Source: a virus
Length of the DNA: 64,000 nucleotides
Strand: one strand, 5' to 3'
Virus record (IMG/VR): IMGVR_UViG_3300017991_000003
Location: 1-64,000 of that record
The notes beneath the pieces are model-generated. The model worked only from the letters and a program-made list of their open reading frames with translations, was not told the DNA's origin and searched no databases. Position 1 is the first letter of the stretch, and each line of letters begins with the position of its first letter. A program made the position numbers and the translations under genes. Below are positions 46,681 to 58,971 of this stretch, piece by piece.

Positions 46681-47208
46681 TCAGTCTTCGCTAGCAGCTT
46701 GTTGTCGACGGACCTCCGCAGATGCAGCGTAGCAGAGCACCATCGCATCCGAGATGTCCTCGTGGGCTTTGGGCACACCATCAGGATAGCCCAAATCGGC
46801 CAAGTCATCGGAAAACCGTTCATTCATTCGAGCCCGCGCCCCGTCCTTATCCTTGGCCTTGACGCGACTGCGGGCCGTCTTAGCTGTGATCAGGACCGGC
46901 TCGTAACCCGCTCGGGCGACCTCCGACATCACGGCCCCGATAGCCATGGCGACCTTGCCCATGGATGATAGGTTCCTGGCGTGCTTGTTGAACTTCAAGT
47001 CCTCGATGATCACGTGATCCGGGTTCCACTTGGCGAGCACCTCCCGCACCCGCTTCCCTAGCTGCCCGATCCGAGCAGCGAAGGTGTCCTTGGCGCGCAA
47101 CCGAAGGAGCTCGACATGCAGCATCTCCCACTCATCGCTCTCATCCATCCGCATCAAGGCCACCCCTGTTTTGAGGCTGCCGCAGTCGAATCCCATTACA
47201 ACGGTCAT
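46681..47208 (-). CDS. RuvC-like Holliday junction resolvase
   Basis: GFDCGSLKTGVAL (cf. RuvC GIDPGSRVTGYGV), HVIIEDL, DAMVLCYA acidic catalytic positions. Confidence 0.6.
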   Translation of the reverse strand: MTVVMGFDCGSLKTGVALMRMDESDEWEMLHVELLRLRAKDTFAARIGQLGKRVREVLAKWNPDHVIIEDLKFNKHARNLSSMGKVAMAIGAVMSEVARAGYEPVLITAKTARSRVKAKDKDGARARMNERFSDDLADLGYPDGVPKAHEDISDAMVLCYAASAEVRRQQAASED

Positions 47209-47609
47209 TCACGCCCCCCGGCTCCTCGGCCGCGGTTACGGATGGCCCGCTGAATGGCCTCTCGCCGGCTCGGCGGGATCTTGTGCAGGGGGAGCTCGAC
47301 CGGAGCTTCGGGGACCTTCTGGAAGGGCAGGTCACCGAAGATCTTGATCAGGGATCCAAGAACGTCTTGAGCATTCATCGTGTCGAGACGCCCATCGACC
47401 ATGGAGATCGGCAGCTCGAAGGTCATCGGCTGATCGAACGGGGTCAAGTAGTGCATTCGGAGCCCCATGTGCTCCTCATCACCTTCGGGGGCGATGTTCG
47501 TCACGTGACACCAGATGAACCAGCCGGTCACGTGGATACCGGAGGCGCCGAATCGAATGTCCTTGGAGCTGAAGGTCCAGAAAGGCTTAGGAGCGTTGGG
47601 GTTATCCAT
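47205..47609 (-). CDS. hypothetical protein (134 aa)
   Basis: ATGA overlap with RuvC-like gene. Confidence 0.5.
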   Translation of the reverse strand: MDNPNAPKPFWTFSSKDIRFGASGIHVTGWFIWCHVTNIAPEGDEEHMGLRMHYLTPFDQPMTFELPISMVDGRLDTMNAQDVLGSLIKIFGDLPFQKVPEAPVELPLHKIPPSRREAIQRAIRNRGRGAGGRE

Positions 47610-47611
47610 AG

Positions 47612-47654
47612 CTAAAAGAGAGGAAGGGGCGAGGCCGGCACCCCGAAGGGCGCC
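47612..47654 (-). terminator. terminator-like hairpin plus U-tract on - strand
   Basis: GGCaCCC-CGAA-GGGcGCC stem (47636..47654), then TCTCTTTTAGC on - strand; shares AGCTAAAAG with the 43105 terminator. Confidence 0.4.
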
Positions 47655-55804: not shown

Positions 55805-56046
55805 GGCTCACAGCCCTCCTCGTCGGCCAGGAGACGCGCTAGCGCCTCGTCCTTGGTGTAATCCTTTGGCCACTCTCTGACTTCCACTGTAGGGTTGCGG
55901 AGACCGGCGCTAAGGCTTTGAAGATCCTTCCCCAGCCGGCGGAGGACCCCATCGAAGAGGTCCTCCTCTGGCTCGAGGAAGATGCGGGGAAGTTCGATGT
56001 AGGAGTCGAACCCCTCTGCACAGACTCGGACGTCAATACCCCTCAC
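55792..56046 (-). CDS. hypothetical protein (84 aa)
   Basis: ORF overlapping neighbours by a few nt. Confidence 0.4.
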   Translation of the reverse strand: MRGIDVRVCAEGFDSYIELPRIFLEPEEDLFDGVLRRLGKDLQSLSAGLRNPTVEVREWPKDYTKDEALARLLADEEGCEPWRL

Positions 56047-57122
56047 AGCCCTACTGGGAGGACAGTAAGCGGGTGATCGACGCGGAATCTAGCCGGTATC
56101 CCCCTAGTGGTGTCCTCCGTAGGGGTAGTCCGGGTCGGGGTGCGCCAGCGTCTGGTAGCGTATCTACTCACCATATGATGGTGTTCCAGTAGGCAGATCC
56201 CCGAGCTACCTCGGGTATTGGCAAGTTGGGCCATCCGCGTACTGATGCTCCGGGCCCACTGTCTGGCGTAGTACGCATTGGTAGTGTGGCCTAGAGGAGC
56301 ATACGCACTCGGCCACTCCCACCCGATCCAGGAAGCTGCATGGTTGGGCAGCTTGATGCTCACTCGAGGAATATTGCGGGCCTCCTCAGACCAGCGGCGT
56401 CGGTGATAGGAGAGGTCCGTAACACCAATACTCCCATCAGGTACCAACGCGTTCATGAGCTCTCTTGGAGAGTACCACGCAGCGTTGGTTGCATACGCCC
56501 AGGCCGCGTACGGGTGGGCGGCGTAACGAAAGTACCTCCGCAACGCCATCCGCACCCCCTGCTTCGACGCCAGATCACCTGCCCGCACATTTGGTACTCG
56601 AATAGCTGGGATCAACCCGCGAACTTGATCGAGCGGAAATAGCGTGTCAGGCCGGAACAGTACCGGGATTGCCACGCACCACACGCTCAAAGACTTGCAT
56701 GACACTGAGCTGCGCTTGGAGTAGAAGGCATAGATGACGCGCCACTGGAAGTTGGGAAATGTCATCTCCCACGACAGCTTCCCATAGCGCCCGGGAGGGG
56801 ATGTGGGGTCGATGTGAGGCCGCTGCGTGCGGCCTCGGCAGCGGTAGCGTGCGTACATGAGCGACCGATCGTTTGGGCCTGACCACAGCATCTGCATCGC
56901 CGCAGCACGCCGCGCCTCCCACGTCATGCCGGCTGGGTTGTTGTTCAAGAAGCGCGACGCGGCTTCGGTCAGTCGATGATCTGCGACGTCGAAAGGAAAG
57001 CGGTCGGTGAGTGGGTCGAAGTCCCTAGCCGTGGCCGACTTCGTCGCCTGGAACCCGTAGACCGCCGCCCTTAGTCGCCAGGTCTCCGGGGGTCCGATCC
57101 TTGTCTTGAGTGATTTCGGCAT
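56043..57122 (-). CDS. hypothetical Trp/Arg-rich protein
   Basis: ATG at 57122..57120 chosen; track ORF to 57374 would overlap the helicase gene by 350 nt; no motif recognised. Confidence 0.4.
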   Translation of the reverse strand: MPKSLKTRIGPPETWRLRAAVYGFQATKSATARDFDPLTDRFPFDVADHRLTEAASRFLNNNPAGMTWEARRAAAMQMLWSGPNDRSLMYARYRCRGRTQRPHIDPTSPPGRYGKLSWEMTFPNFQWRVIYAFYSKRSSVSCKSLSVWCVAIPVLFRPDTLFPLDQVRGLIPAIRVPNVRAGDLASKQGVRMALRRYFRYAAHPYAAWAYATNAAWYSPRELMNALVPDGSIGVTDLSYHRRRWSEEARNIPRVSIKLPNHAASWIGWEWPSAYAPLGHTTNAYYARQWARSISTRMAQLANTRGSSGICLLEHHHMVSRYATRRWRTPTRTTPTEDTTRGIPARFRVDHPLTVLPVGL

Positions 57123-58971
57123 CCTCGTTCTCCATATTGATGGCTTGAGGTTCAACACCCATCTCCTTGAGGAAAGGGCTGTCGATGTCGTATGTGGTGG
57201 TGTAGAGGTGGTTGATGGCGCGGGTAATCGCCACATAGGCGAGTCTCCGCTCCTCATCCTCACGGCCGTTCTTGTGTGGAATGAGCCCATCACAGAACCC
57301 GGCGATGAAGACAGTGGGGAACTCGAGTCCCTTGGCCCGGTGAATCGTGAGCAGCTGCACACGGGACCGGCCATCTTGGCGAGACTTGCTCTCCTGCTCG
57401 ACGAGATTGACGTGGGTCAGGAACTCCTTGATCGTGCGGAAGCGCGGCAAGGTCTGCATTAGTACCCGAGACACGGCATCCATCATCTCGTCAGGATCCT
57501 TGCGCTGGTTGCGGGCAGCCAGTTCACGAATGAACCCAGCAAAGCCGAGGCTCTGCCAGATGTGGTGGCCGATGTTGGCCGGCGTGTGACCCTCCTTGAC
57601 CAACATGTCCAGGTCCTGGAGGAGCGTACACAGAGATCCCGCGGCCTGCTGTTGCCGGAACCCTCCCCGCGTAGCTGCCATGACTTGCATGACAGATGCG
57701 GCAGAGCCGTCCGACTTGCCCATGCACTCAGCCACCCAGTCCCGACGCAGAAACCGGTTGGGCTTGTTGAGCACCCACCGCAGCGACGTGATGTCGTTCG
57801 GGCGGGCTGCTAGCCGAAGGTAGCTGACCAGGGTGCGGATCTCGGTACGACCGTAGAACCCGCCTTGATCATCGATGACCTCATAGGGGATCTTCCGCAT
57901 GCTGAGCTCATCCTCGAATGCGCCTGACTGGGCGTTCGTTCGATAGAGCACCGCGATGTCAGAGGCCATACCTCCGGCATCAAGGATCTCCTCGATCCGA
58001 TCGGCCGTGTACTGCGCCTCCTCGACAGGATGCTTCACACGGACCGAGGTGATAGCGCCCTCGCCTGTGAGCGTCGGTCGGAGGACCTTGTCCACTCGCA
58101 GGTCGTTGCACTTGATCAGCTGGTTAGCCGCGTCAAGGATCGGCGCCTGAGACCGGAAGTTCTCTTCCATCGAGATGGCAACCCCTCCGTAGATCTCAGG
58201 GAACTCGATGATGAAACGCGGGGAGCATCCCCGGAACCCATACACCGACTGATCATCGTCACCGACGACCACGAGGTTGCCTTTCTCGAGCTTCTTCAGG
58301 ATCTCGGCCTGCGCCGGGTCAGTGTCCTGGAACTCATCGACCAGGATGTGATCCAGTCGATTCTTGAGCACGTCGACCAGTTCCGGGTCATCTCGGAAGA
58401 GCTGCAAGCAGTCGATGATCATGTCATCGAACAGGTACTTCCCGTTCTTCACGATCGACTGATGGAGCGCATGCAGGAGCTCGACATACCCCGGGCCTAG
58501 GTTCATATGCGCGTGAATGCGGTCAGTCATCGCAAGCCACGCGTCGGGGTGAAACCCGTTGAGCTTGAGCAGGCTGATGTCCCGCAGCATGTCGGCAGGG
58601 ACGCCAACGGCGTTCGGGGTTTCTCTGAGCAGCTCCTCGGCCCACTTGATGAGCAACCACTCCTCCCGACCCTCCACGACTTCGCGGTTTTGGTACTGGT
58701 TCGGGCAGCGGCGATTGAGAACCTTGAAGCAGAAGCTGTGGAAGGTGCCAATGAAGCTGCTGGGGGTGAGGGGCACCCCCACACGCTTGTTGAGACTCTC
58801 TGCCGCCTTCTTACTGAAGGTCAGCACCAACTGGCTCTCGCCAGCCTCGGCATGCTTACGAATGCGCTCGACCAGGACGGTCGTCTTGCCGCTGCCGGCC
58901 ACGGCGAAGATAACGAGGTTCGAGCCCTCGTGATCAATCGCCTTCTTCTGCGCCGCTGTGAAGGAGGTCAA
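57025..58971 (-). CDS. UvrD/PcrA/Rep-family SF1 DNA helicase
   Basis: Walker A AVAGSGKTTVL, motif II ILVDEFQDTDPAQ, typical length. Confidence 0.75.
   Translation of the reverse strand: MTSFTAAQKKAIDHEGSNLVIFAVAGSGKTTVLVERIRKHAEAGESQLVLTFSKKAAESLNKRVGVPLTPSSFIGTFHSFCFKVLNRRCPNQYQNREVVEGREEWLLIKWAEELLRETPNAVGVPADMLRDISLLKLNGFHPDAWLAMTDRIHAHMNLGPGYVELLHALHQSIVKNGKYLFDDMIIDCLQLFRDDPELVDVLKNRLDHILVDEFQDTDPAQAEILKKLEKGNLVVVGDDDQSVYGFRGCSPRFIIEFPEIYGGVAISMEENFRSQAPILDAANQLIKCNDLRVDKVLRPTLTGEGAITSVRVKHPVEEAQYTADRIEEILDAGGMASDIAVLYRTNAQSGAFEDELSMRKIPYEVIDDQGGFYGRTEIRTLVSYLRLAARPNDITSLRWVLNKPNRFLRRDWVAECMGKSDGSAASVMQVMAATRGGFRQQQAAGSLCTLLQDLDMLVKEGHTPANIGHHIWQSLGFAGFIRELAARNQRKDPDEMMDAVSRVLMQTLPRFRTIKEFLTHVNLVEQESKSRQDGRSRVQLLTIHRAKGLEFPTVFIAGFCDGLIPHKNGREDEERRLAYVAITRAINHLYTTTYDIDSPFLKEMGVEPQAINMENEDAEITQDKDRTPGDLATKGGGLRVPGDEVGHG

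What the first reader, a model, noticed from the sequence alone, without database searches (positions are those of the whole stretch)
46681..58971. Dense recombination/repair module
Co-oriented RuvC-like resolvase, two PD-(D/E)xK-type nucleases, RecA-like recombinase, SF2 DEAH helicase and UvrD-like SF1 helicase, with no DNA polymerase seen in this window. This is consistent with recombination-dependent replication or anti-restriction repair.
Basis: partly seen in the sequence, partly recalled or inferred. Interest (0 to 1): 0.4.

Follow-up and report, generated by a model that had tools for sequence, protein, structure and literature searches.

The report
Phage recombination and repair gene block
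This is the ordinary homologous-recombination and DNA-repair gene block of a large uncultured virus of bacteria, and its DNA polymerase is not missing: it sits about 4.5 kb beyond the edge of the window.

Summary
All six assignments survive domain, motif or fold checks, and all six genes lie on the minus strand:
- RuvC-like resolvase, 46681-47208
- Cas4/RecB-type PD-(D/E)xK exonuclease, 49380-50429
- Hjc-type PD-(D/E)xK resolvase, 51395-52030
- RecA-family recombinase, 51915-53525
- DEAH SF2 helicase, distantly XPB-like, 53916-55379
- UvrD/PcrA-like SF1 helicase, 57025-58971

They sit in a tightly packed, overlapping run of about 19 genes. Order and orientation are conserved, at 42-64% protein identity, in three or more related metagenomic phage contigs.

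"No polymerase" is a window-edge artefact. On the same contig and strand, a family A DNA polymerase starts about 4.5 kb past the window end, preceded by a Toprim primase. In one relative the polymerase ends 1.5 kb upstream of UvrD.

The element is a phage of about 175-193 kb and 63% GC, with terminase, capsid and protease genes in the window. It has no close cultured relative. The block is best read as the recombination arm of the phage's replication module, comparable in role to T4 UvsX/UvsW/Dda/endonuclease VII. No defence-system partners were found.

It is a new member of a known kind, of low interest. The mildly unusual points are two unrelated junction resolvases kept together and a zinc-finger insertion in the RecA-like protein.

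The parts
58934..59395 (-). Conserved 153-aa hypothetical protein immediately upstream of UvrD
   Evidence: No family hit. An orthologue sits in the same position in L005, L007 and L008 at 49-63% identity.
57025..58971 (-). UvrD/PcrA-like SF1A helicase (648 aa)
   Evidence: PF00580 1.4e-48 and PF13361 3.9e-53. NCBIfam PcrA 1.2e-100, below the equivalog cut-off. phrog_1967 1.5e-105. About 31% identity to SPO1-group phage helicases.
56043..57119 (-). Fast-evolving ORF of up to 358 aa that fills the stretch left uncalled in the ENA record
   Evidence: The ORF stays open for 358 or more codons. Positional homologues in L007 and L008 share only 24-27% identity, and there is none in L005. Codon-position GC is atypical. 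No Rfam hit and no DNA conservation beyond the first ~130 nt.
55792..56046 (-). Conserved 84-aa hypothetical protein
   Evidence: 47-51% identity in L005, L007 and L008. No family hit.
55397..55804 (-). Conserved 135-aa hypothetical protein
   Evidence: 46-47% identity in L007 and L008. Only a sub-threshold Pfam hint, PF12843 at E=0.078.
53916..55379 (-). SF2 helicase with a DEAH motif, distantly XPB/Rad25-like (487 aa)
   Evidence: PF04851 ResIII 2.2e-16. phrog_16 1.9e-27. PDB archaeal XPBII 6p4f 1.2e-8. NCBIfam XPB 3.1e-8, far below cut-off. The sequence shows DCGTGKT and LLVDEAH.
53525..53941 (-). Conserved 138-aa protein whose stop overlaps the RecA start; candidate recombinase accessory factor (speculative)
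   Evidence: 53-61% identity, always directly upstream of RecA, in L005, L007 and L008. No family hit.
51915..53525 (-). RecA-family recombinase (536 aa) with a Lys-rich N-terminal tail, a CxxC...CxC insertion after Walker A, and a ~170-aa C-terminal extension
   Evidence: PF00154 9.6e-8. phrog_97 UvsX-like 2.4e-18. PDB RecA 4.7e-5. Conserved GxEHxGKS, ADLxxLDS, IQTNQ and GG(N/K)AL(K/R)YA. Only 4 clusters in the 5.8-billion-protein database.
51395..52030 (-). Hjc-type PD-(D/E)xK junction resolvase-like nuclease (about 211 aa) with an extra C-terminal domain
   Evidence: phrog_2002 4.6e-10. Invariant S57, G58, G65, D66, E76 and K78. Homologues hit PF01870 and PF24608. Model pLDDT 77; Foldseek to A. 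fulgidus, S. solfataricus and P. furiosus Hjc/Hje, probability up to 1.00.
50652..51395 (-). P-loop nucleotide kinase, dTMP-kinase-like (247 aa)
   Evidence: phrog_761 thymidylate kinase 1.2e-11. TIGR00041 5.1e-8, below cut-off. Pfam hits are only sub-threshold.
50431..50667 (-). 78-aa hypothetical protein
   Evidence: Positional equivalents of 46-70 aa in relatives. Weak tblastn hit in L005 only.
49380..50429 (-). Cas4/RecB-family PD-(D/E)xK exonuclease (349 aa) with putative Fe-S cysteines and an inserted Cys4 ribbon
   Evidence: phrog_2506, 1706 and 1990. Motifs D185, E199xK201 and QxxxY; Cys53/56, 317, 328, 334; C114, C117, C130, C148. Profile hit to Cas4 4ic1 over the D..ExK motif, E=0.87. 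Foldseek top 20 are nearly all Cas4/RecB-family nucleases at E~0.03, on a low-confidence model.
47669..49387 (-). Conserved unknown protein (about 570 aa): Lys-rich N-terminus, ~370-aa conserved domain, a Glu/Asp tract of variable length (~100 aa here), and an ~85-aa C-terminal domain
   Evidence: 51-52% identity in L005 and L008. The acidic tract is nearly absent in L005. No family hit.
47205..47609 (-). Conserved 134-aa hypothetical protein whose stop overlaps the RuvC start
   Evidence: 55-60% identity in L005 and L008. No family hit.
46681..47208 (-). RuvC-like Holliday junction resolvase (175 aa)
   Evidence: PF02075 1.7e-9. phrog_159 4.7e-18. PDB RuvC 2.4e-5. D8, E69 and the D151-x-x-D154-A motif read from the sequence.
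44771..46599 (-). Downstream end of the conserved block: two hypothetical proteins (182 and 148 aa) and a sigma-70-family factor (282 aa, 44771-45619)
   Evidence: Sigma70_r2 1.5e-9 and r4 1.7e-8. phrog_351 6e-40. All three genes conserved in L005 and L008.

Best explanation
The region is the homologous-recombination and repair arm of the DNA replication module of a large (about 175-193 kb, 63% GC) uncultured tailed phage.

Likely mechanism, inferred from the known biochemistry of each family and not shown here:
1. The Cas4/RecB-type exonuclease resects double-strand ends into 3' single-stranded tails.
2. The RecA-family recombinase forms a filament and invades a homologous duplex. The small protein translationally coupled to it may assist.
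3. The phage's own family A polymerase and primase, encoded just upstream outside the window, extend the resulting D-loop.
4. The XPB-like SF2 helicase and the UvrD/PcrA-like helicase remodel or migrate branches and clear recombinase filaments.
5. The RuvC-like and Hjc-like nucleases cut Holliday junctions and other branches, so that the concatemer can be packaged by the terminase.
6. The dTMP-kinase-like enzyme supplies precursors.

The genes overlap or abut, and no convincing internal terminator was found, so they are probably co-transcribed.
For: - Phage identity: terminase phrog_675 2.9e-64; protease-like and capsid-like hits; the sequence is an IMG/VR viral contig, 100% identical where the fetched loci overlap the window.
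- Six enzyme assignments.
- Conserved gene order and orientation in L005, L007 and L008, with every module gene at 42-64% identity.
- Polymerase A, primase and a probable SSB-like protein on the same strand, 4.5-9.5 kb upstream. The polymerase lies next to UvrD in L005.
- Gene overlaps of 1-116 nt read from the ORF coordinates.
- Only weak terminator-like sites on the minus strand inside the block.
- The same functional set (RecA homologue, SF2 helicase, UvrD-type SF1 helicase, RuvC or REase-fold resolvase) is described as the core recombination apparatus of large phages and linked to recombination-dependent replication (PMC7824862, section 3.4.2).
- Phage RuvC enzymes are known to cut a broad range of branched DNA (PMC3864405 abstract).
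Against: - No activity has been tested and no host is known.
- No UvsY-type mediator was recognised, and the only SSB candidate lies outside the window and has no family or PDB match.
- No replicative DnaB-type helicase, ligase or origin was identified in the sequence examined.
- The Cas4-like assignment rests on PHROG profiles and motifs. No Pfam or NCBIfam hit was found, and the structure model was poor (pLDDT 47.5).
- The XPB resemblance is distant, with scores far below the NCBIfam cut-off.
- Seven interspersed conserved proteins have no assignable function, so part of the module's logic is unknown.
Confidence: 0.75

Rival explanations
1. A dedicated double-strand-break repair or counter-restriction module. 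The genes mend phage DNA cut by host nucleases and are dispensable for normal replication.
For: The same enzyme set would carry out break repair. An HAD phosphatase / polynucleotide-kinase-like gene lies nearby at 59475-60197 (phrog_415 2.4e-4, PF18143 4.9e-4).
Against: No anti-restriction protein family was detected. The block is contiguous with polymerase A in L005 and co-oriented with polymerase and primase here. In T4 the two roles use one machinery, so this is more an added role than an alternative (PMC7824862).
Confidence: 0.15
2. A polymerase-A-based theta or rolling-circle replisome. UvrD/PcrA or the SF2 protein is the replicative helicase, and recombination proteins only resolve and repair concatemers. 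Replication is therefore not recombination-primed.
For: No DnaB-type helicase was found next to the primase and polymerase; the 453-aa gene between them has no helicase motifs. PcrA-type helicases drive rolling-circle replication of plasmids (established knowledge).
Against: Only about 85 kb of a 175-193 kb genome was examined, so a DnaB-like gene may lie elsewhere. The presence of a full strand-invasion set argues for invasion-primed synthesis, but does not prove it.
Confidence: 0.2
3. A phage-carried anti-phage defence system, for example Gabija-like (UvrD-type GajB) or a PbeA-like or DISARM-like helicase-nuclease system.
For: UvrD matches GajB models (3.5e-67). The SF2 helicase weakly matches PbeA (4.2e-9).
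Against: The GajB hits are generic UvrD similarity; the PcrA model scores higher (338 against 225 bits). None of the ten proteins scanned, including both nucleases, matched a defence-system partner such as GajA. The genes are embedded in, and syntenic with, the replication module.
Confidence: 0.02
4. Cellular genes on a host chromosome or plasmid segment rather than phage genes.
For: RecA, RuvC and UvrD are typical bacterial housekeeping families. The window also carries a bacterial-type RNA polymerase beta-beta' gene and a sigma factor.
Against: Terminase, protease and capsid-like genes lie in the window, and a tail-fibre-like gene just beyond its end. All proteins are very divergent from cellular equivalogs, with scores far below NCBIfam cut-offs. 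The RecA-like family has only 4 clusters in 5.8 billion proteins. No tRNA or rRNA was found.
Confidence: 0.02

Closest known systems
T4-type recombination-dependent replication and repair set (UvsX, UvsY, UvsW, Dda, gp46/47, endonuclease VII)
   Same: It has a RecA-family recombinase, an SF2 branch helicase, an SF1 helicase, an end-processing nuclease and a junction-cutting nuclease. These are encoded by a large lytic-type phage that also has its own polymerase and primase.
   Different: - The recombinase scores closer to bacterial RecA than to Rad51 (PF00154 9.6e-8 against PF08423 1.6e-3).
- No UvsY was recognised.
- The SF2 helicase resembles XPB rather than UvsW.
- End resection is assigned to a Cas4/RecB-type nuclease instead of Mre11/Rad50-like gp46/47.
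- Resolution is assigned to RuvC plus Hjc-type enzymes instead of endonuclease VII.
- The polymerase is family A, not family B.
Recombination apparatus of jumbo phages as catalogued by Iyer et al. 2021 (PMC7824862)
   Same: The review lists the same combination for large myoviruses: a RecA homologue, a lineage-specific SF2 helicase, a UvrD-type SF1 helicase and a RuvC-like resolvase without RuvAB. It also lists REase-fold proteins reminiscent of archaeal resolvases.
   Different: That survey reports nearly complementary (either/or) distributions for RuvC against endonuclease VII and against RusA. Here RuvC-like and Hjc-like genes co-occur and are both conserved across the clade. The genome is below the usual 200 kb jumbo threshold, and no cultured relative was found.
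SPO1-group Bacillus phage UvrD-type helicases
   Same: These are the best cultured-phage matches to the UvrD-like protein: about 31% identity over 94-98% of its length. One relative (L007) carries an intein in UvrD, as SPO1 gp34.33 does.
   Different: Identity is low. The rest of the block has no detectable counterpart there; the RecA-like protein gave no tblastn hit in 50,697 phage records.
Archaeal Hjc/Hje Holliday junction resolvases (PF01870)
   Same: The same fold and the E...D...ExK catalytic pattern with a preceding S-G motif. Foldseek probability is 0.99-1.0 against 2wiz and 2wcw.
   Different: Sequence similarity is marginal: no direct Pfam Hjc hit, and only 2 of 32 homologues hit it. 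The protein has a ~30-aa N-terminal extension and a ~75-aa C-terminal domain that Hjc lacks.
Cas4 / AddB-AdnAB-type RecB-family nucleases with an Fe-S cluster
   Same: The D...ExK and QxxxY motifs, and a pattern of one N-terminal plus three C-terminal cysteines. The best structural neighbours are Cas4 SSO0001, Cas4-Cas1, ACE1 and AdnAB.
   Different: There is no CRISPR context. The protein is larger (349 aa) and has an inserted Cys4 ribbon. The C-terminal cysteines are spaced C-x10-C-x5-C, not the C-x2-C-x5-C that I recall for AddB (from memory, not tested). All similarity scores are sub-threshold apart from the PHROG hits.

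Membership tests
RuvC (PF02075) junction resolvase | RNase H-like fold profile match above the Pfam gathering score | tested here: met
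   38.1 bits against a cut-off of 22.2. PDB RuvC 6s16 E=2.4e-5.
RuvC (PF02075) junction resolvase | Four acidic catalytic residues (D7, E66, D138, D141 in E. coli numbering, from memory) | tested here: met
   D8 and E69 align to the RuvC residues. D151-I-S-D154-A was read from the sequence and assigned by pattern only.
RuvC (PF02075) junction resolvase | Cleavage of four-way junctions | not testable with these tools
   Needs biochemistry.
RecA/UvsX recombinase family | RecA-core profile match with Walker A and Walker B | tested here: met
   PF00154 32.2 bits against a cut-off of 27. GPEHVGKS and ADLIILDS are conserved in 4 orthologues.
RecA/UvsX recombinase family | DNA-binding loop L2 region and the signature that follows it (GGNALKFYA in E. 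coli RecA, from memory) | tested here: met
   GGNALKYA at residues 327-334, within the stretch aligned to RecA.
RecA/UvsX recombinase family | Equivalog-level similarity to bacterial RecA | tested here: not met
   TIGR02012 scores 29.6 bits against a cut-off of 325. It is a divergent family member, not a RecA orthologue.
Cas4 / RecB-family PD-(D/E)xK nuclease | D...(D/E)xK and QxxxY motifs | tested here: met
   D185, E199-M-K201 and Q239-G-K-L-Y243 are invariant in 4 orthologues.
Cas4 / RecB-family PD-(D/E)xK nuclease | Four cysteines (one N-terminal, three C-terminal) for an Fe-S cluster | tested here: inconclusive
   Conserved C53/C56, C317, C328 and C334 are present, but the spacing differs from canonical Cas4/AddB and metal binding is untested.
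Cas4 / RecB-family PD-(D/E)xK nuclease | Significant curated-profile or structural match | tested here: inconclusive
   PHROG 2.3e-11, but no Pfam or NCBIfam hit. PDB profile E=0.87. Foldseek E about 0.03 on a pLDDT 47.5 model.
Hjc-type (archaeal) resolvase / PDDEXK_15 | E...D...ExK catalytic pattern | tested here: met
   D66, E76 and K78 are invariant across 32 homologues, and an upstream glutamate (E42) is present in most of them.
Hjc-type (archaeal) resolvase / PDDEXK_15 | Hjc fold | tested here: met
   Model pLDDT 77, pTM 0.72. Top 14 Foldseek hits are all Hjc/Hje, probability up to 1.00, TM (target) 0.45-0.58.
Hjc-type (archaeal) resolvase / PDDEXK_15 | Pfam profile membership | tested here: not met
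   PF24608 E=0.029, below cut-off. Only 3 and 2 of 32 homologues reach PF24608 and PF01870 respectively.
UvrD/PcrA/Rep SF1A helicases | UvrD N-terminal and C-terminal domains | tested here: met
   166 and 181 bits, far above the cut-offs.
UvrD/PcrA/Rep SF1A helicases | Orthology to a specific cellular helicase (PcrA, UvrD or Rep) | tested here: not met
   PcrA model scores 338 bits against a cut-off of 911.
XPB/Rad25 SF2 helicases | SF2 motor with a DEAH motif | tested here: met
   ResIII 60.6 bits. DCGTGKT and VDEAH are in the sequence.
XPB/Rad25 SF2 helicases | XPB-specific elements (damage-recognition domain, RED motif, thumb) and a Bax1 nuclease partner | not tested
   Only the N-terminal motor domain aligned to XPBII. 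NCBIfam XPB scores 32.6 bits against a cut-off of 610. No neighbouring gene gave any Pfam hit that would indicate a Bax1-type nuclease.
T4-type recombination-dependent replication system | UvsY mediator, UvsW helicase, gp46/47 and endonuclease VII orthologues | tested here: not met
   No PHROG or Pfam hit to these families in the region. The roles appear to be filled by non-orthologous enzymes.
Gabija defence system | GajB helicase paired with a GajA ATPase-Toprim nuclease | tested here: not met
   Generic GajB-like similarity only. None of the ten proteins scanned matched a GajA model.

The most novel reading that the evidence does not exclude
The clade keeps two unrelated junction resolvases (RuvC-like and Hjc-like with an added C-terminal domain). 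It also keeps a RecA-family protein with a zinc-finger insertion and a Lys-rich tail, and seven conserved proteins of unknown function. One of these is a ~570-aa protein with a variable poly-acidic tract; another is a small protein translationally coupled to RecA. This could be a distinct, self-contained recombination machine. The two resolvases would have separate tasks, for example fork or D-loop processing versus pre-packaging debranching. New mediator or regulator proteins would replace UvsY/RecFOR-type loaders.
Probability: 0.2. Interest if true: 0.45.

Novelty: new member of a known kind. Interest (0 to 1): 0.2.

Why it matters
The finding mainly matters as annotation. It shows that a deep-branching, uncultured lineage of high-GC large phages carries a complete strand-invasion and junction-resolution toolkit next to a family A polymerase and primase. 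This fits the general picture that large phages replicate and repair through recombination.

It adds very divergent members of the RecA, Cas4-like, Hjc-like and XPB-like families that could be useful for enzyme discovery. It also gives a case where two resolvase types coexist rather than replace one another. It does not open a new question on its own.

Tried and rejected
- **Cultured relatives.** Megablast of the 12.3 kb region and tblastn of the RecA-like protein against 50,697 phage records gave nothing. UvrD, terminase and SF2 gave only hits below 35% identity. There is no cultured relative to lean on.
- **The uncalled ~1 kb stretch (56047-57024).** I suspected a non-coding RNA or an origin. 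Rfam gave no real hit at either threshold, and there are no tRNAs and no meaningful repeats. DNA alignment to L007 is conserved only at the UvrD end. A 358-codon open frame is kept in three lineages with weak protein similarity. I read it as a fast-evolving gene and rejected the RNA and origin ideas.
- **Defence-system reading.** PADLOC gave only generic helicase similarity. Rejected.
- **Sequence-only PDB searches.** None gave a significant hit for either nuclease or for the putative SSB.
- **AlphaFold model of the Cas4-like protein.** With only 4 sequences the model was poor (pLDDT 47.5), so its fold-search result counts only as consistent, not as proof.
- **A correction.** From the gene calls I first thought the Hjc-like gene was missing in L005 and L006. 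tblastn showed it is present in L005 but was not called there.
- **Promoter and terminator scan.** Uninformative for operon boundaries inside the block.

Full report
**What the window is.** The 64 kb window is about 63% GC. Plus-strand genes run to about 43 kb and minus-strand genes from about 43.5 kb to the end. The plus-strand arm holds a large terminase (24211-26040, phrog_675 E=2.9e-64), a protease-like gene and a weak major-capsid match. The sequence is 100% identical, where the fetched loci overlap the window, to IMG/VR contig IMGVR_UViG_3300018080_003942 (91.6 kb). It also occurs on ENA and JGI contigs of 174,660 and 193,018 bp. It is therefore part of a large tailed phage. No cultured phage is close: megablast of the region and tblastn of the RecA-like protein found nothing, and UvrD, terminase and SF2 matched at under 35% identity.

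**Check of the observation.**
- RuvC-like, 46681-47208. PF02075 scores above its gathering cut-off (E=1.7e-9), with phrog_159 at 4.7e-18. Solved RuvC structures align over the first two catalytic acidic residues. The D-x-x-D-A motif can be read near the C-terminus.
- First PD-(D/E)xK nuclease, 49380-50429. It has no Pfam or NCBIfam hit. It matches three PHROG families annotated as exonuclease or Cas4-related (best 2.3e-11). Four orthologues conserve D185, E199-x-K201, Q239xxxY243, one N-terminal and three C-terminal cysteines, and an inserted Cys4 ribbon. A profile search touches Cas4 SSO0001 exactly over the D..ExK segment, but at E=0.87. The structure model was poor (pLDDT 47.5). Its best PDB neighbours were nonetheless almost all Cas4, ACE1, AdnAB, Exo5, lambda exonuclease, RecE and MGME1 (E about 0.03). 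I treat this assignment as supported but not proven.
- Second PD-(D/E)xK nuclease, 51395-52030. The start is probably the ATG at 52030, judging from the L007 orthologue. It matches phrog_2002 'Holliday junction resolvase' (4.6e-10). An exhaustive HMMER search found 32 homologues with invariant S57, G58, G65, D66, E76 and K78. A few of them reach Pfam Hjc and PDDEXK_15. A model built on that alignment (pLDDT 77) matches archaeal Hjc/Hje with probability up to 1.00.
- RecA-like, 51915-53525. It passes PF00154 and phrog_97. It conserves Walker A, Walker B, the IQTNQ segment and GGNALKYA.
- SF2 helicase, 53916-55379. It has ResIII (2.2e-16) and a literal DEAH motif. Its nearest solved relatives are archaeal XPB proteins (1.2e-8).
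- UvrD-like, 57025-58971. This assignment is unambiguous.

**Is the clustering meaningful?** Yes. The genes overlap or abut, with overlaps of 1-116 nt. The whole run is: 153-aa protein, UvrD, ORF358, 84-aa, 135-aa, SF2, 138-aa, RecA, Hjc-like, dTMP-kinase-like, 78-aa, Cas4-like, acidic ~570-aa, 134-aa, RuvC, 182-aa, 148-aa, sigma factor. It recurs in the same order and orientation in three diverged metagenomic lineages at 42-64% amino-acid identity. Only ORF358 and the 135-aa gene are missing in one relative (L005).

**Where the polymerase is.** I walked off the window end through a Logan contig and the IMG/VR contig. On the same strand this gave:
- an 846-aa family A DNA polymerase (PF00476 1.2e-63, phrog_17 7.3e-99) at window-equivalent coordinates of about 68487-71027;
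- upstream of it, a 453-aa protein with a globular N-terminal part, a long Gln/Pro/Ala-rich tail and an acidic tip, which is SSB-like in layout only (inference);
- upstream of that, a Toprim primase (phrog_47 2.2e-16).

In relative L005 the orthologous polymerase (70% identity) ends 1.47 kb upstream of UvrD. The roughly 9.5 kb of small ORFs that separates them in this genome is therefore a lineage-specific expansion. The absence of a polymerase from the window is an edge effect and says nothing about the mode of replication.

**Mechanism.**
- Shown: the gene families, their conserved catalytic motifs, their tight and conserved linkage, and their linkage to polymerase and primase.
- Inferred from the established biochemistry of these families: end resection by the Cas4/RecB-type nuclease; strand invasion by the RecA-like protein; extension by the phage polymerase; branch remodelling by the SF2 and UvrD-type helicases; and debranching by the RuvC-like and Hjc-like nucleases before packaging.

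This is the role set described for T4 and, more broadly, for large phages in PMC7824862. Phage RuvC enzymes are known to cut many branched substrates (PMC3864405). Whether replication is actually primed by recombination cannot be decided here. No DnaB-type helicase, origin or mediator was recognised in the roughly 85 kb examined.

**Rivals.**
- A repair-only or counter-restriction role is compatible with the enzymes. It has no specific support and is not exclusive of the main reading.
- A defence-system reading is rejected. PADLOC gave only generic UvrD/GajB and weak PbeA similarity with no partner proteins, and the PcrA model outscores GajB.
- A cellular origin is rejected on the virion genes, the extreme divergence from cellular equivalogs and the rarity of the RecA-like family, which has 4 clusters in 5.8 billion proteins.

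**Comparison and novelty.** In function this is a T4-like recombination and repair set. It is built from non-orthologous parts: a bacterial-RecA-like rather than Rad51-like recombinase, an XPB-like rather than UvsW helicase, a Cas4-type nuclease rather than gp46/47, RuvC plus Hjc-type enzymes rather than endonuclease VII, and a family A polymerase. It is a new, very divergent member of a known kind.

Three points are mildly unusual:
- Two unrelated resolvase families are conserved together, whereas the jumbo-phage survey reports nearly complementary distributions for RuvC against endonuclease VII and RusA.
- The RecA-like protein has a CxxC...CxC insertion and a Lys-rich tail.
- Seven conserved proteins in the block have no known family. 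One is a ~570-aa protein whose poly-acidic tract ranges from almost none to about 100 residues between relatives.

**Verdict.** The finding is ordinary in kind and of low interest (0.2). The more striking feature of this window lies outside the finding: a bacterial-type RNA polymerase beta-beta' fusion gene in the arm that also carries the virion genes, together with a sigma-70-family factor.

Noticed in passing
window 11611-18765 (+): A 2384-aa ORF is a fusion of bacterial-type RNA polymerase beta and beta' subunits. PDB beta' 8i23_D matches at E=5e-111 over residues 1459-2357, and beta 8syi_C at E=1e-80 over residues 763-1330. This is far closer to cellular RNAP than the split, divergent RNAPs of jumbo phages. 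It lies in the arm that also holds the terminase and capsid genes.
   Followed up: partly
window 44771-45619 (-): A sigma-70-family factor (regions 2, 3 and 4; phrog_351 6e-40) closes the conserved replication/recombination block in this genome and in relatives L005, L006 and L008. A 13-bp GC-rich hairpin (44714-46) follows its stop codon. With the beta-beta' fusion, this suggests that the phage brings much of its own bacterial-type transcription machinery.
   Followed up: partly
window 1054-6228 (+) and 38957-42214 (+): Two giant ORFs of 1724 aa and 1085 aa have no Pfam or PHROG match at all.
   Followed up: partly
window 56043-57119 (-): About 1 kb between UvrD and the next gene was left uncalled in the ENA record. 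It holds a 358-codon ORF with atypical codon-position GC (0.57/0.57/0.69, against about 0.63/0.42/0.77 for its neighbours). Positional homologues share only 24-27% identity, while flanking genes are 45-64% identical. It is absent in L005.
   Followed up: yes
window 47669-49387 (-): The conserved unknown protein carries a pure Glu/Asp tract of about 100 residues here. The tract is about 40 residues in L008 and almost absent in L005, so it expands and contracts quickly.
   Followed up: partly
L007:1093-3861: The UvrD orthologue of one relative is 922 aa and carries an intein (PF14890), as do the UvrD-type helicases of SPO1-group Bacillus phages.
   Followed up: no
window 59475-60197 (-): An HAD-superfamily phosphatase lies just upstream of the block. 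It has weak similarity to polynucleotide kinase/phosphatase and to the HAD domain of RNA-repair proteins (phrog_23773 8.8e-12, phrog_415 2.4e-4, PF18143 4.9e-4). It is a possible end-healing enzyme.
   Followed up: no
window ~59.4-64 kb and beyond, to window-equivalent ~68.5 kb (L003, L004:9763-14250): About 9.5 kb of small ORFs (50-240 aa), nearly all without any family match, separates UvrD from the polymerase in this genome. The same interval is 1.5 kb in relative L005, so this is a hypervariable insertion zone.
   Followed up: partly
L004:5711-7072 (+), window-equivalent ~71.2-72.5 kb: A 453-aa protein lies between the primase and polymerase A. It has a globular N-terminal part, a ~150-residue Gln/Pro/Ala-rich tail with PMQQ repeats, and an acidic C-terminal tip. 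The layout is SSB-like, but there is no family or PDB match.
   Followed up: partly
L004:842-4618 (-): A 1258-aa protein on the opposite strand, upstream of the primase, gives many short hits to tail-fibre and head-decoration PHROGs. The pattern is typical of collagen-like repeats.
   Followed up: no
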